DNA from: a virus
Lineage: Duplodnaviria; Heunggongvirae; Uroviricota; Caudoviricetes
Length of the DNA stretch: 15,179 nucleotides
Virus record (IMG/VR): IMGVR_UViG_2690316346_000009
Direction: 5' to 3' (one strand)
Part shown: one piece after another, positions 1-6,000 of the stretch
How positions within the stretch are numbered: the first letter of the stretch is position 1
How the letters are laid out: each line of letters opens with the position of its first letter
Position numbers: made by a program

Positions 1-3000
1 TTTGAACGCAAACCGTGCTTCGTTTTCCGTTTCATATACTCCCTGCCATATTCCGCCATTGCCCCCGGCATATCTTTACCGAAGCGCGTCAGTGTTACAG
101 GTTTACCAAACCCATGTGCCCTCATATAAGCCAGATAGGCATGATAGAGATACCTGCGTGGGCTGAATGGCACAATTTCAGCATTACCCACTAACAGGCC
201 ATCACACATTACCGACGCCATGAGATAGCCGCAGAAGTCCACCAGCGAATCCCCCTCTCGCTTTATCGCCAGTGCTTCTTCAGATTTCTGCTGCTCATAT
301 AACAGGCGTCTGGCTTCGTCCTGGTCAGCAAACCGTGTAAGCAGATGGCGAATCACTACCGCCAGCTCACCTTCTATTTTTTCCGCCAGCATTGGATCAC
401 GTTCGTTCTCCGGTACAACTTCCGAAAAATTGAATATCACCCGACGACGTGAGATCCCCCCGCTGCGGTCACTGAATGACATGGCGTTATTGTTAACCGC
501 CAGCACTACTGCCGGAATACGCGTTGAGTAGGGGGCTTTGTGTTTCGGGTCAATTGCCACCTTGTCACCGCCTGTAATGGCCTTAATCCCTGCCCCATCA
601 CCAGCGTAGCGGGTCATATCCGGCATGATAATCAGCGAAAAGCCAACCACTAACGCGCGTTCCCTTGCATCTTCCAGCGCCTTCATGCTTGCCGATACTG
701 TGTTGGCCTTACCCGCCAGCATGGTGCAAATCTCCGCCATCACGCTTTTACCACTTCCCCCTGGACCTGTTACCTCAATGAATAACTGCCAGTCGTACCG
801 GTTCGCCAGCACCATGAATAATGCAGCCAGTACGCGATCCGCCTTGCGGTCATTCTCAGCCACCGAACGGCGTAACCACTTCCAGAAATTCGGCGCATGT
901 GTTGCCAGCGTTTCCCCCTCTGCTGGTGGGCTGAAAGGTAATTCACTGGCAATTAACAACCAGTCGTTTTTGTTATGCTCCCGAAAATTACCTGTTCTGG
1001 TATCAAATACCCCGTTACTGAATCCAATCAGGTTACGGGCTGTATTCCCCATTACAGGCAAACTTAACTTCATGGTATCGACCGCCGATTTAATGGCGTT
1101 CTGCGAATAGCTGATCTCCGCATCAATGAAAATCTGTGCCATAGCTCGCTGTAATTCTTTATCCTGTACTGGCTCCCATACAACGCCGTTGTAATGGTGA
1201 ACAGTGTCAGAGTCAGCATGAATCGCCAGTTCACCGCCATAATGTGCCAGGAGAACTTCGCCGCGTTGACTTGCTCCCATCTGGTTAAGCGCCAGTGATG
1301 ACGCGTTATCGTCTTTTACCCGCTCTTTTTTCTTTACAGGCAGTTCAACTACCTTTTTCTTTTCCGCCTGCTCTGCCCGTTCACGTTCCAGATATTCGCG
1401 CCAGTTCTCCCGTTTCTGGCTGTGCATTCCTTCAGGGTAATAATCAGCATCCCTGACACCTGCCACTGCCAGTTTCTGCCCGATGGTATTAACAAGCCCC
1501 GGCCGCAATAACCCCGCCTGATAGAGACGCACGCGATAGCGTCCGTCCGGTACGATTTGCAGGTTGTCCAGTTCGGCAAGTTGTTGCTCTCCAAGCCAGA
1601 CAGGTGGCACGTTATCGCCAGCCAGTCGCCCGTCCTGTTCCTGCCACTGTTTCGCATGTGCCCACGCATCACTACCCGCAAAAATGATGACTTCCGTCAT
1701 TTTGTCACGCGGCTGGTGTTTTAAATTTGGCGCTTTTTTCATTTCTGCTCTCTCCACGCGGCAATCATGTTTTTTAGTTCCTGTAGTTTTTTATCAACAT
1801 CCATACATGACACATGGTTATTTCTGGAAAGCGGGATTTCCCGCCTGAATCTGCTAATAAAGATCTCCACGTTCAGCGAACTATGAAATGAATAGCCATC
1901 ACGAATAAAATACACACGGTCAAACATCAGTTCTTTTACCGTTACTCTGTTACCGTTCTTATCCAGATAAATAGCGCCGGGGATAATTTNCGTTCGTTCT
2001 CCGGTACAACTTCCGAAAAATTGAATATCACCCGACGACGTGAGATCCCCCCGCTGCGGTCACTGAATGACATGGCGTTATTGTTAACCGCCAGCACTAC
2101 TGCCGGAATACGCGTTGAGTAGGGGGCTTTGTGTTTCGGGTCAATTGCCACCTTGTCACCGCCTGTAATAGCCTTAATCCCTGCCCCATCACCAGCGTAG
2201 CGGGTCATATCCGGCATGATAATCAGCGAAAAGCCAACCACTAACGCGCGTTCCCTTGCATCTTCCAGCGCCTTCATGCTTGCCGATACTGTGTTGGCCT
2301 TACCCGCCAGCATGGTGCAAATCTCCGCCATCACGCTTTTACCACTTCCCCCTGGACCTGTTACCTCAATGAATAACTGCCAGTCGTACCGGTTCGCCAG
2401 CACCATGAATAATACAGCCAGTACGCGATCCGCCTTGCGGTCATTCTCAGCCACCGAACGGCGTAACCACTTCCAGAAATTCGGCGCATGTGTTGCCAGC
2501 GTTTCCCCCTCTGCTGGTGGGCTGAAAGGTAATTCACTGGCAATTAACAACCAGTCGTTTTTGTTATGCTCCCGAAAATTACCTGTTCTGGTATCAAATA
2601 CCCCGTTACTGAATCCAATCAGGTTACGGGCTGTATTCCCCATTACAGGCAAACTTAACTTCATGGTATCGACCGCCGATTTAATGGCGTTCTGCGAATA
2701 GCTGATCTCCGCATCAATGAAAATCTGTGCCATAGCTCGCTGTAATTCTTTATCCTGTACTGGCTCCCATACAACGCCGTTGTAATGGTGAACAGTGTCA
2801 GAGTCAGCATGAATCGCCAGTTCACCGCCATAATGTGCCAGGAGAACTTCGCCGCGTTGACTTGCTCCCATCTGGTTAAGCGCCAGTGATGAAGCGTTAT
2901 CGTCTTTTACCCGCTCTTTTTTCTTTACAGGCAGTTCAACTACCTTTTTCTTTTCCGCCTGCTCTGCCCGTTCACGTTCCAGATATTCGCGCCAGTTCTC

Positions 3001-6000
3001 CCGTTTCTGGCTGTGCATTCCTTCAGGGTAATAATCAGCATCCCTGACACCTGCCGCTGCCAGTTTCTGCCCGATGGTATTAACAAGCCCCGGACGCAAT
3101 AACCCCGCCTGGTAGAGACGCACCCGATAGCGTCCGTCCGGTACGATTTGCAGCTTATCCAGTTCGGCAAGTTGTTGTTCTCCAAGCCAGACAGGAGGCA
3201 CGCTGTCGCCAGCCAGTCGCCCGTCCTGTTCCTGCCACTGCTTCGCATGTGCCCACGCATCATTACCCGCAAAAATGATGACTTCCGTCATTTTGTCACG
3301 CGGCTGGTGTTTTAAATTTGGCGCTTTTTTCATTTCTGCTCTCTCCACGCGGCAATCATGTTTTTTAGTTCCTGTAGTTTTTTATCAACATCCATACATG
3401 ACACATGGTTATTTCTGGAAAGCGGGATTTCCCGCCTGAATCTGCTAATAAAGATCTCCACGTTCAGCGAACTATGAAATGAATAGCCATCACGAATAAA
3501 ATACACACGGTCAAACATCAGTTCTTTTACCGTTACTCTGTTACCGTTCTTATCCAGATAAATAGCGCCGGGGATAATTTTGGGGTGTGCATAACCGCTG
3601 GCAGTCAAGCCAGATAAATACGTTCTCATGATTATTTATCTCAGATTTGAATCAGTATTCGCTTTCTCTATGGCATTTAATGCATCTGTGGCATTTTCAA
3701 TGGTGCACCGTAACGAAATATCAAACTGCCCAAGCATTGCCAGTAACAAGCCAATATTACCCATGTCAATGCGCATAGCCTTTTCGTCATATTCCTCATT
3801 TTCTGACGCATGCCACATCAGGCTACCAATTGACGCAACAGCCATTGATATATTGTCAGTAGCCCCATCCGCAGCGGAATAAACCTTTTTAGCAATATCA
3901 TGCTCACAGTTAAAATGCGGATTAATCAGGTACTGGTAATTGGTCATGTCAGGCATGGCACACCTCCTGACGAATACGGGCGGCGAATACAGCAACACAA
4001 CCTGACGGGCAACGGTTACGCGCTTCGCGTTCCGTCCAGGCGGTTACGTGGATGATTTGAGATTCTCCGGCACTCAGGGCCAGAAAACGCCACACAAAGG
4101 CCGTTTGTGTGTGTACAAGGTGTGGTATATGATTTACGGCAACCATAACGGCTCCTCGTTTACGTTGTTGGTTAGAAGCCCTGCGAGTGGTAACGACACT
4201 TGCGGGGCTTCGTCGTTTCAATTGCTGAATTGCATGTATCAGCACTTGTGGTATTCACATTACATTTAGGTGAATACCATTTCAAGTCTTTTTTGGTATT
4301 CACTTTTGTATTACACTGCATCCCGTTATTAATGGGAGGTGCAAACATGTCCAGGAGTTCTGTTAACAATAAGTCACAGCAACTGAATGCCAGATTTCCA
4401 CATGAAGTAGTGAGTGGCATTGAGGCATCCCTACAGCCAGGGGAAACTAAAGCGAATTTTATAGTTACGGCTGTACGCGGTGAGATCGCCAGGCGCCAGG
4501 CAGAAGGAAGTGGAGAAAATCCCCTTGTGTCTTCACTGGATGCCCTAGCTAATGTCGAACAAATCGGCATCAAGGCAGCGGAGGAAATCGGGCAGCTTAT
4601 CACCGTTGCACGCGAAGAACTCCAGCGCCGCAAGGCCAAAGAATCAGAATAATCACTATCAGCGCCGTGGTGTGAGGAACTCCGGCGCATTGCTTTACAG
4701 GCGCACACAATGACCAACGAAGAATCAACCAAAAAAACATCACCTGCACGAAAAAGACGACGCAGAAAGAAAGAGCATGAATCAGAACGATTCGCGCCGT
4801 GTTCTTTTGCCCTTGAGAAGTACCTTAAAGAATACTCATCAAAGGAGAGAGCTTCGCAGTTATGGCAACGCACTGAAACAGACTGATAGCATTGCCCACC
4901 AGCCTGATAGCGGCTATCATTGACATGCTTATGTTTAGTGTTTCCAAACTGGCGACCGCCCCAGGTCGCCTTTGTTTTATGTGTCATATGCTCCCCTTTA
5001 CACTGCCTTACCTGAATTAATGCGATCCCGGCTTTTAACCCATTCCATAACCTCGGACAGCAGCCACCCTACAGAACGACCGCCCAGATTAAGACGTGAC
5101 GGAAAGCGCCCTTTTTTCTCCAGTTCGTAACGTGTAGTGCGGCACACTCCAGTTAACTTACGACATTCATCCTCACGGATTACGCGATCTTCATTTATTT
5201 CACGCATACAAAAACCTACATAAAAATTACGTATATAAACTTTTCTCTTAGCTGTAGATATATGAGATCGGATATTACTTAGATTCTTTTTCACCTCTTA
5301 AATTAAAAACACAACCATGCTGGTAATGACTCCAACTTATTGATAGTGTTTTATGTTCAGATAATGCCCGATGACTTTGTCATGCAGCTCCACCGATTTT
5401 GAGAACGACAGCGACTTCCGTCCCAGCCGTGCCAGGTGCTGCCTCAGATTCAGGTTATGCCGCTCAATTCGCTGCGTATATCGCTTGCTGATTACGTGCA
5501 GCTTTCCCTTCAGGCGGGATTCATACAGCGGCCAGCCATCCGTCATCCATATCACCACGTCAAAGGGTGACAGCAGGCTCATAAGACGCCCCAGCGTCGC
5601 CATAGTGCGTTCACCGAATACGTGCGCAACAACCGTCTTCCGGAGACTGTCATACGCGTAAAACAGCCAGCGCTGGCGCGATTTAGCCCCGACATAGCCC
5701 CACTGTTCGTCCATTTCCGCGCAGACGATGACGTCACTGCCCGGCTGTATGCGCGAGGTTACCGACTGCGGCCTGAGTTTTTTAAGTGACGTAAAATCGT
5801 GTTGAGGCCAACGCCCATAATGCGTGCAGTTGCCCGGCATCCAACGCCATTCATGGCCATATCAATGATTTTCTGGTGCGTACCGGGTTGAGAAGCGGTG
5901 TAAGTGAACTGCAGTTGCCATGTTTTACGGCAGTGAGAGCAGAGATAGCGCTGATGTCCGGCAGTGCTTTTGCCGTTACGCACCACCCCGTCAGTAGCTG

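What the first reader, a model, noticed from the sequence alone, without database searches (positions are those of the whole stretch)
400..3580. Imperfect 1591 bp tandem duplication across the primase and its upstream gene, joined by a single n
The unit length is not a multiple of three, so the int-proximal primase copy is frame-broken at the junction while the distal copy is intact and runs off the window. The copies differ at about 15 scattered positions, which is more than expected for a fresh duplication. Together with the lone n this points to a collapsed or chimeric assembly of two paralogous elements, or to an older real duplication or gene-conversion tract.
Basis: seen in the sequence. 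Interest (0 to 1): 0.5.

Follow-up and report, generated by a model that had tools for sequence, protein, structure and literature searches.

The report
False tandem duplication from scaffolding
The apparent 1.6-kb tandem duplication of a satellite-phage primase gene is not in the genome: a draft-assembly scaffold placed two overlapping contigs, from two nearly identical copies of the gene at different chromosomal sites, end to end with an N between them.

Summary
Window 400-1989 and 1991-3580 are 1590-nt copies, period 1591, with one N at 1990 and 15 mismatches. It is not a genomic duplication. The window is a scaffold of three contigs: A (1-1989), B (1991-6079) and C (6091-15179). A second gap of 11 N is followed by a second, more diverged "repeat". 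In independent gap-free assemblies A and C are collinear and 92 nt apart, forming one PICI-like satellite (E1) between thiM and rcnR. Contig B belongs to a paralogous, IS1-interrupted satellite (E2). Relatives of E2's regulatory region sit at the cspD/clpS site. In independent contigs E2 runs on past B's left end as an ordinary single primase gene. Each of the four relevant contig ends abuts the first base that distinguishes E1 from E2, which marks assembly-graph branch points. The junction occurs in 0 of 5426 complete E. coli genomes, and no exact match to a 40-mer spanning it was found in three large contig collections. Both SNP haplotypes exist in other genomes, and 10 of 15 differences are synonymous. 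The differences are therefore real paralog divergence, not errors. Interest is low.

The parts
1..1989 (.). Contig A of the scaffold. It is the replication module of satellite E1 (thiM/rcnR site): primase-helicase on the minus strand 1757->2 (C-terminal ~21 codons lie beyond the contig end) and the 5' part of the DUF4222 gene (1989->1739).
   Evidence: Maps ungapped to complete genome NZ_CP085074.1 (L001 6001-7989, 99.7 %) and to IMG/VR contig L031 (99.85 %, 3 mismatches). Pfam D5_N, DUF5906 and Pox_D5; PHROG 864 DNA primase. The base before position 1 and the base after 1989 both differ between E1 and E2 references.
400..1989 (.). Copy 1 of the apparent 1591-bp tandem unit. It is the last 1590 nt of contig A.
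1990..1990 (.). Single N: a scaffold join between contigs A and B, with no sequence evidence for the junction.
   Evidence: The junction query matches no complete E. coli genome over >=80 %. The 40-mer across it has 0 exact matches in viral, GTDB-representative and metagenome contigs.
1991..3580 (.). Copy 2 of the apparent unit. It is the first 1590 nt of contig B: the E2 allele of the primase 5' two-thirds plus the DUF4222 gene start.
   Evidence: The 261-nt SNP-cluster haplotype is 100 % identical in 6 complete genomes. IMG/VR contigs L007 and L008 are 99.9 % identical and continue leftwards without any junction.
1991..6079 (.). Contig B. It is a paralogous satellite E2: truncated primase (3348->1991), DUF4222 (3629->3330), a hypothetical gene (3998->3636), Icd-like/other small ORFs, AlpA (5294->4998), then IS1 (5322-6079, lacking its last 10 nt).
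   Evidence: Only 87.8 % identical to the E1 locus overall; identity profile. Region 5000-5321 is 100 % identical to elements at the cspD/clpS site. Window 3543-5351, which includes the junction of unique sequence with IS1, is 100 % identical to L006 (IMGVR_UViG_2698536458_000008). IS1 InsA/InsB domains.
6080..6090 (.). Second scaffold gap (11 N) between contigs B and C.
6091..15179 (.). Contig C. It holds the rest of satellite E1 and the chromosomal flank: a hypothetical gene (6374->6091, cut), an Icd-like/YlcI region, AlpA (7648->7424), DUF6387 (8606->7752), integrase (9823->8603), a 76-nt att-like repeat (9851-9926), rcnR, rcnA, rcnB, yehA, and yehB cut by the first 51 nt of IS1 (15129-15179).
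   Evidence: Maps to L001 8082-17134 at 99.05 %. Its first 3810 nt map to L031 at 99.95 %, exactly 92 nt from contig A on the same strand. Annotation; Pfam. Its first 53 nt match contig B 3673-3725 exactly.

Best explanation
The tandem duplication is a scaffolding artefact.

The sequenced E. coli sample most likely holds two related PICI-type phage satellites in one genome. E1 lies between thiM and rcnR. E2 is IS1-interrupted, and relatives of its regulatory region lie at the cspD/clpS site. Their DUF4222-primase replication modules are about 99 % identical.

A short-read assembler could not run through this near-repeat. It ended each contig at the last base shared by the two copies before a discriminating base. 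That produced contig A (E1 primase), contig B (E2 regulatory region plus two-thirds of the primase) and contig C (E1 regulatory region, integrase and chromosomal flank). A scaffolding step then chained them as A-n-B-N11-C.

The last 1590 nt of A and the first 1590 nt of B are the same stretch of the two paralogous genes. Laid end to end, they look like an imperfect tandem repeat with a frame-broken primase. The true arrangement is A + 92 nt + C at one locus, with B elsewhere.

Shown: the three-contig structure, the single-copy state of both elements in independent assemblies, the branch-point position of all contig ends, and the natural occurrence of both alleles. Inferred: that both elements are in one genome rather than in two co-sampled strains, and which software made the join. 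From my own knowledge, not verified here, some paired-read scaffolders such as SSPACE write a single n when contigs are predicted to abut or overlap but cannot be merged.
For: (1) Ns sit exactly at both repeat junctions (1990 and 6080-6090). Each contig starts by repeating the end or the inside of the previous one.

(2) In complete genomes the 3700-nt query collapses onto a 2109-bp place (3700-1591) in 582 genomes. The whole window collapses onto ~11.1 kb.

(3) A maps to L001 at 99.7 % and C at 99.05 %, 92 nt apart. In gap-free L031, A maps at 99.85 % and C at 99.95 %, again exactly 92 nt apart.

(4) B is only 87.8 % identical to that locus. It is 99.9 % identical to IMG/VR contigs L007 and L008, and L006 shows the same IS1 junction. 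These contigs continue past B's left end as a normal primase gene.

(5) All four contig ends abut a base that differs between E1 and E2. Before window position 1 it is G vs A. At A399, next to the B start that corresponds to A400, it is A vs G, the first difference going left. After A1989 it is G vs T. Before C6091 it is A vs G. With local SNP densities of about 5-12 %, the joint chance is of order 1e-4 to 1e-5.

(6) The junction is absent from 5426 complete genomes and from three contig collections. None of the 50 fetched loci has two copies of the unit.

(7) Both haplotypes are natural: copy 1 matches at 99.6 % in 87 genomes and copy 2 at 100 % in 6 genomes. 10 of 15 differences are synonymous third-position changes.

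(8) Many E. coli genomes carry several such primase modules: up to 6 places per genome, and 1199 places in 922 genomes. Satellites are known to co-occur in E. coli genomes (PMC10085698).

(9) The geometry equals the 'duplicated overlapping contigs' class of false duplications (PMC2864568).
Against: No reads or depth are available, so the absence of a real junction is inferred, not observed. I could not show that E1 and E2 co-reside in the source genome. The IMG genomes that hold E2-type contigs did not return an E1-type contig, but that collection holds only predicted viral regions. The reason for the B-to-C join and its 11 N is unexplained. No complete genome has exactly the E2/IS1 junction, so E2's chromosomal site is inferred from relatives. 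The N in the junction pattern may not match a literal N in the collections, so only exclude a sequenced junction.
Confidence: 0.93

Rival explanations
1. Same artefact, different source. The two alleles come from two E. coli strains, or a heterogeneous culture, sequenced together rather than from two loci of one genome. The assembler kept both and the scaffolder chained them.
For: The sequence alone cannot tell paralogs in one genome from alleles in a mixture. The contig-end geometry is the same under both.
Against: E2's regulatory region is of the type found at a different att site (cspD/clpS) from E1 (thiM/rcnR), so both fit in one genome without conflict. Multiple copies per genome are common. 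Nothing else in the window, such as the chromosomal flank 9900-15128, shows duplicated or variant contigs.
Confidence: 0.08
2. A real, older tandem duplication of the DUF4222-primase segment exists in the genome. It arose by unequal crossing-over or replication slippage and has since diverged or been partly converted. The N merely marks one uncalled base.
For: The text of the window shows two copies in tandem with 0.94 % divergence. The differences look like natural variation, mostly synonymous.
Against: The N lies exactly at the junction, and the same pattern recurs at the second gap with a far more diverged paralog plus an IS1. Independent contigs show the copy-2 element continuing past the supposed junction with a different primase 3' haplotype, starting at the very next base. 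A and C are adjacent in E1 relatives. The junction is absent from 5426 complete genomes and three collections. Short reads would collapse a real 99 % tandem repeat rather than resolve it.
Confidence: 0.02
3. A real composite locus. E2 has moved next to or into E1 by IS1-mediated rearrangement or tandem integration, so the order C-IS1-B-A is physical and only the junction bases are missing.
For: IS1 sits at the B/C gap. The gap length (11 N) is close to the 10 nt of IS1 missing at 6079. Tandem satellite arrays at one att site are conceivable.
Against: C's left end does not carry IS1 sequence, although its right end keeps 51 nt of IS1. Instead it starts with a 53-nt exact match to B's interior, bounded by a base that discriminates E1 from E2. 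The A/B join would still need a second novel junction that coincides exactly with two branch points. Tandem integration would place a complete E1 next to an integrase, not a cut gene next to an IS1.
Confidence: 0.02

Closest known systems
False duplications from 'duplicated overlapping contigs' in draft assemblies (Kelley & Salzberg 2010, PMC2864568; see also PMC9516828)
   Same: [quoted passage not shown] This gives the illusion of a recent duplication next to a gap and a spurious broken gene copy.
   Different: That work dealt with the two haplotypes of diploid vertebrates. Here the two versions are most likely paralogous mobile elements at two loci of a haploid bacterium. The correct fix is therefore to remove contig B from the scaffold, not to merge A and B.
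PICI / capsid-forming PICI phage satellites of Enterobacteria (de Sousa et al. 2023, PMC10085698)
   Same: The gene order is integrase, AlpA-type regulator, primase-replicase, followed in complete relatives by capsid or terminase-small-subunit genes. The elements are integrated at fixed chromosomal sites. Several satellites can co-occur per genome, and the primase-replicase is exchanged between PICI and cfPICI lineages.
   Different: Only the int-to-primase half lies in the window. Membership was not tested with SatelliteFinder models. The E1-type relative (L001) carries only a protease-capsid fusion and a DUF1441 gene, so it may be a reduced or distinct variant.
Satellite phage P4 alpha primase-helicase
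   Same: The protein has the D5_N / SF3-helicase (DUF5906) / Pox_D5 architecture and matches phage DNA primase PHROGs. It lies downstream of int and alpA, as in P4.
   Different: No psu, delta or sid genes are annotated in complete relatives, which carry capsid genes instead. The protein is ~606 aa. The P4 alpha sequence itself was not compared here.

Membership tests
Scaffold artefact: duplicated overlapping contigs (false duplication) | The two copies lie on different contigs, separated by a gap character exactly at the junction. | tested here: met
   The N at 1990 lies between 400-1989 and 1991-3580. A second gap at 6080-6090 shows the same behaviour.
Scaffold artefact: duplicated overlapping contigs (false duplication) | The overlap is end to end: the end of one contig matches the start of the next. 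| tested here: met
   The last 1590 nt of A match the first 1590 nt of B at 99.06 %, ungapped.
Scaffold artefact: duplicated overlapping contigs (false duplication) | The region is single copy in independent, contiguous assemblies. | tested here: met
   582 complete genomes hold one copy. 0 of 5426 have the junction. L031 shows A+92 nt+C, and L007/L008 show E2 as single copy. 0 of 50 loci have two units.
Scaffold artefact: duplicated overlapping contigs (false duplication) | Read pairs and read depth fit better once the duplicated contig is removed or merged. | not testable with these tools
   No reads are available.
Real tandem duplication | A sequenced novel junction joins the unit's end to the unit's start. 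| tested here: not met
   The junction is an N. No matching junction exists in complete E. coli genomes or in three contig collections.
Real tandem duplication | Both copies share the same flanking continuity, so copy 2's left flank is the unit end. | tested here: not met
   In L007 and L008 the copy-2 element continues into the primase 3' end (type II haplotype), diverging from contig A at the very next base, A399.
PICI / cfPICI satellites (SatelliteFinder definition, PMC10085698) | Integrase, AlpA/MerR/Stl regulator and primase-replicase are co-localised. | tested here: met
   Integrase 8603-9823, AlpA 7424-7648 and 4998-5294, primase 2-1757 and 1942-3348.
PICI / cfPICI satellites (SatelliteFinder definition, PMC10085698) | Capsid-morphogenesis or capsid genes and a small terminase subunit are present. 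| tested here: inconclusive
   These lie outside the window. Complete relatives carry a protease-capsid fusion plus DUF1441 (L001, L003), a major capsid protein, decoration protein and terS (L005, L050), or a full HK97 head module plus terS and terL (L004). This rests on annotation names only.
P4-like satellites | Psu, Delta, Sid and epsilon occur together with int, AlpA and alpha. | tested here: not met
   No gene annotated as psu, delta or sid is present in the window or in the complete relatives. This relies on annotation and Pfam/PHROG names, not on dedicated profiles.

The most novel reading that the evidence does not exclude
The source strain really carries a rearranged composite of two PICI-type satellites at the thiM/rcnR locus. 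This would arise by IS1-mediated or homologous recombination between co-resident satellites through their 99 % identical primase module, leaving a truncated and an intact primase in tandem. It would be a caught-in-the-act example of module exchange between satellites.
Probability: 0.03. Interest if true: 0.35.

Novelty: not a real feature. Interest (0 to 1): 0.07.

Why it matters
Taken at face value, the scaffold yields a false gene gain: a second, frame-broken primase and a DUF4222 fragment. It also yields a false IS1-flanked 'tandem satellite' structure, and it inflates the element from ~11.1 kb to 15.2 kb. Anyone counting satellites, duplications or pseudogenes in draft genomes would be misled. 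The case gives a simple diagnostic: Ns exactly at repeat junctions, and contig ends that abut the first base that discriminates two paralogs.

The real biology underneath is ordinary but worth recording. One 99 %-identical replication module is shared by satellites at three att sites, and it has a mosaic SNP structure consistent with the recombination already reported between PICI and cfPICI primase-replicase genes.

Tried and rejected
(1) Tandem Repeats Finder does not report the repeat because its longest period is 500. The repeat finder and direct comparison were used instead.

(2) I tried to document from the literature the convention that a scaffolder writes a single n for unresolved overlaps. 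Searches returned only 'single nucleotide' or 'single N. species' matches. The statement about SSPACE therefore stays as my own unverified knowledge.

(3) I searched for the source scaffold through the junction 40-mer in viral, GTDB-representative and metagenome contigs. All gave 0 hits. The pattern's N may not match a literal N.

(4) I searched complete E. coli genomes for the E2/IS1 junction and found none. E2's chromosomal site is therefore inferred only from relatives of its alpA region.

(5) Sequencing error as the source of the 15 differences is rejected. Both haplotypes recur in independent genomes, and 10 of 15 changes are synonymous.

(6) Merging A and B into one locus is rejected. 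B continues into a regulatory region only 54-86 % identical to C and then into an IS1.

(7) A single N in locus L039 was checked and is unrelated.
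Full report
**Observation.** Window 400-1989 and 1991-3580 are two 1590-nt copies with a start-to-start spacing of 1591. A single N at 1990 separates them. They differ at exactly 15 positions, 99.06 % identity, with no indels.

All genes here are on the minus strand. The copy nearer the integrase encodes a primase-helicase (Pfam D5_N, DUF5906) that starts at 3348. It reads across the N into another frame and stops at 1942 after 468 aa. The other copy starts at 1757 and is still open at window position 2 (585 aa; it also has the Pox_D5 C-terminal domain).

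Two things were missed. First, 12 of the 15 differences are packed into 208 nt (1465-1672), so they are clustered rather than scattered. Second, there is another gap, 11 N at 6080-6090. The sequence that follows it (6091-7616) is again a copy of earlier sequence (3673-5190), this time only 54-96 % identical per 100-nt bin.

**The window is a scaffold of three contigs.** They are A = 1-1989, B = 1991-6079 and C = 6091-15179. B ends inside an IS1 (5322-6079, InsA/InsB ORFs) that lacks the last 10 nt of the element. C ends with the first 51 nt of IS1 (15129-15179). Contig ends at IS copies are typical of short-read drafts.

**What complete genomes show.** The 3700-nt query covering both copies maps as two pieces onto a place of only 2109 bp (3700-1591) in every top hit. 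582 complete E. coli genomes hold it that way. The whole 15.2-kb window maps onto about 11.1 kb.

In NZ_CP085074.1 (L001), contig A aligns ungapped at 99.7 % to 6001-7989. Contig C aligns at 99.05 % to 8082-17134. That is the same strand, with 92 nt between them. Contig B aligns to the same stretch at only 87.8 %.

L001 carries one satellite-like island between thiM and rcnR. Its genes are integrase, DUF6387, AlpA-type regulator, YlcI, Icd-like, a hypothetical protein, DUF4222, primase, HEPN and a protease-capsid fusion.

A 201-nt query centred on the N finds no place covering >=80 % in any of 5426 complete genomes. A 40-mer across the junction has no exact match in IMG/VR, in GTDB species representatives or in metagenome contigs. 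The pattern's N may not match a literal N, so this last result only excludes a sequenced junction.

**Contig B is a paralogous element.** Its primase and DUF4222 part is ~99 % identical to A. It then falls to 93-98 % (3572-3971) and to 54-86 % through the Icd/AlpA region, before the IS1.

- Its best relatives over the whole length sit between cspD/yljB and clpS (L002, L003).
- Its alpA-proximal 322 nt are 100 % identical to such an element in strain EH41. There the integrase follows where B has the IS1.
- Its 12-SNP cluster allele is 100 % identical to elements inserted in tqsA that carry HK97-type head genes (L004, L005).

The same replication module thus rides in satellites at three att sites.

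**Independent contigs settle the structure.** An exact search for B's junction of unique sequence with IS1 found IMG/VR contig 2698536458_000008. Locus L006 from it equals window 3543-5351 at 100 %. A search with the copy-2 allele fetched the same contig (L007) and another, L008.

Both match contig B with two mismatches, over the 1559 nt that L007 shares with B and over the 3217 nt that L008 shares with it. Both contain no N. Both run on to the left of B's first base as an ordinary primase gene.

Going left from the position that corresponds to B's start (A400), the first base at which these E2-type contigs differ from contig A is A399, the very next base. After that they carry the 34-SNP 'type II' haplotype over A108-399 that is also seen in L002, L004 and L005.

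A search with the copy-1 allele fetched L031 (IMG/VR 2681813236_000014, no N). In L031, A maps with 3 mismatches, and the first 3810 nt of C map with 2 mismatches. They are on the same strand, exactly 92 nt apart. None of the 50 fetched loci has two copies of the unit.

**Contig ends are assembly-graph branch points.** Four ends were checked, and each abuts a base that differs between E1 and E2.

| Contig end | E1 references | E2 |
|---|---|---|
| Base before window position 1 | G (L001, L031) | A in L007, L008 |
| Base after A1989 | G | T in B, at 3581 |
| Base before C6091 | A | G in B, at 3672 |
| A399, next to B's start (= A400) | A (contig A) | G in L007, L008 |

C then shares an exact 53-nt run with B 3673-3725. 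With local SNP densities of roughly 5-12 %, four out of four by chance is of order 1e-4 to 1e-5.

This is what an assembler produces when it extends each path to the end of the last node shared by two near-identical repeats. The 92-nt E1-specific piece differs from B at its first base, its last base and three inner bases. It would make a very small contig and is missing from the scaffold.

One isolated SNP (579/2170) has its alleles swapped between A and B relative to the E1 and E2 references. That fits an unphased bubble, but it is a single case.

**The differences are real alleles.**

- The copy-1 haplotype (261 nt) occurs at 99.6 % in 87 complete genomes. The copy-2 haplotype occurs at 100 % in 6.
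- Ten of the 15 differences are synonymous third-position changes.
- Two of the three apparently private copy-1 variants (1302 and 1503) recur in L031.
- E. coli genomes hold up to six places that match this primase segment: 1199 places in 922 genomes.
- Co-occurrence of satellites in E. coli, and gene flow of the primase-replicase between PICI and cfPICI, are described in PMC10085698.

**Mechanism, and how sure.** Two related satellites with a ~99 % identical DUF4222-primase module were present in the sequenced material. The assembler broke at the discriminating bases. A scaffolder then chained A, B and C with 1 N and 11 N.

The overlap of A's end with B's start therefore reads as a tandem duplication with a frame-broken primase. 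The B/C overlap reads as a second, older-looking duplication. This equals the 'duplicated overlapping contigs' class of false duplications (PMC2864568), except that the two versions are paralogs rather than diploid haplotypes. I put 0.93 on this artefact.

Within the artefact explanation, a one-genome origin is more likely than a strain mixture, because E1 and E2 use different att sites. A real tandem duplication or a real IS1-mediated composite locus together get about 0.04.

I cannot tell which program made the joins, or why B was placed before C with 11 N. Ordering contigs by their start on a single-element reference (6001, 6400, 8082 on L001) would give this order. Mis-mapped read pairs in the 99 % identical stretch would also give it.

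**Comparison with known families.** The elements have integrase, an AlpA regulator and a primase-replicase. In complete relatives they also carry capsid and small-terminase genes. They therefore resemble PICI/cfPICI satellites rather than P4-like satellites, which are defined by psu, delta, sid and epsilon (PMC10085698). Formal membership was not tested.

**Verdict.** The tandem duplication is not a real genomic feature. Interest is low.

Noticed in passing
window 6080-6090 and 6091-7616 vs 3673-5190: There is a second scaffold gap (11 N). It is followed by a second pseudo-duplication at a spacing of ~2420 nt and 54-96 % identity. These are the regulatory modules (Icd-like, YlcI, AlpA) of the two satellites laid in series by the same artefact.
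   Followed up: yes
window 5322-6079: A near-complete IS1 (InsA/InsB ORFs), lacking its last 10 nt at the gap, sits in satellite E2 between alpA and the place where relatives have the integrase. The same junction is in IMG/VR contig 2698536458_000008 but in no complete E. coli genome. E2 may therefore be an immobilised or rearranged satellite.
   Followed up: partly
window 15129-15179: The window ends with the first 51 nt of IS1 inside the usher gene yehB, which runs 411 nt further in L001. This indicates an IS1 insertion in yehB in the source strain.
   Followed up: partly
window 9851-9926; L001 1000-1073: A 76-nt sequence next to the integrase gene recurs at 93 % identity next to thiM at the far end of the island in L001. 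It is probably the att direct repeat of satellite E1. A 12-nt x2.1 tandem repeat (9859-9883) lies inside it.
   Followed up: partly
window 1-1989 (primase), compared with L001-L005, L007, L008: The primase gene is a population mosaic. Two haplotypes differ at 51 sites over positions 108-699, and a separate 12-SNP cluster lies at 1465-1672. E2 combines type II (<=399), type I (400-~1460) and the cluster allele found in tqsA-site elements. This points to recombination between satellites.
   Followed up: partly
L001, L002/L003/L050, L004/L005: Nearly the same DUF4222-primase module is carried by satellites at three chromosomal sites (thiM/rcnR, cspD/clpS, tqsA). Their head modules differ: a protease-capsid fusion, a major capsid plus decoration protein plus terS, or a full HK97 head plus terS and terL.
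   Followed up: no
window 579 / 2170: At this isolated SNP the alleles of contigs A and B are swapped relative to the E1 (L001, L031) and E2 (L007, L008) references. This may be a phase switch at an unphased assembly bubble.
   Followed up: partly
window 10475-10515: Tandem Repeats Finder reports a 22-nt x2 imperfect repeat in the rcnR-rcnA intergenic region. It was not examined.
   Followed up: no
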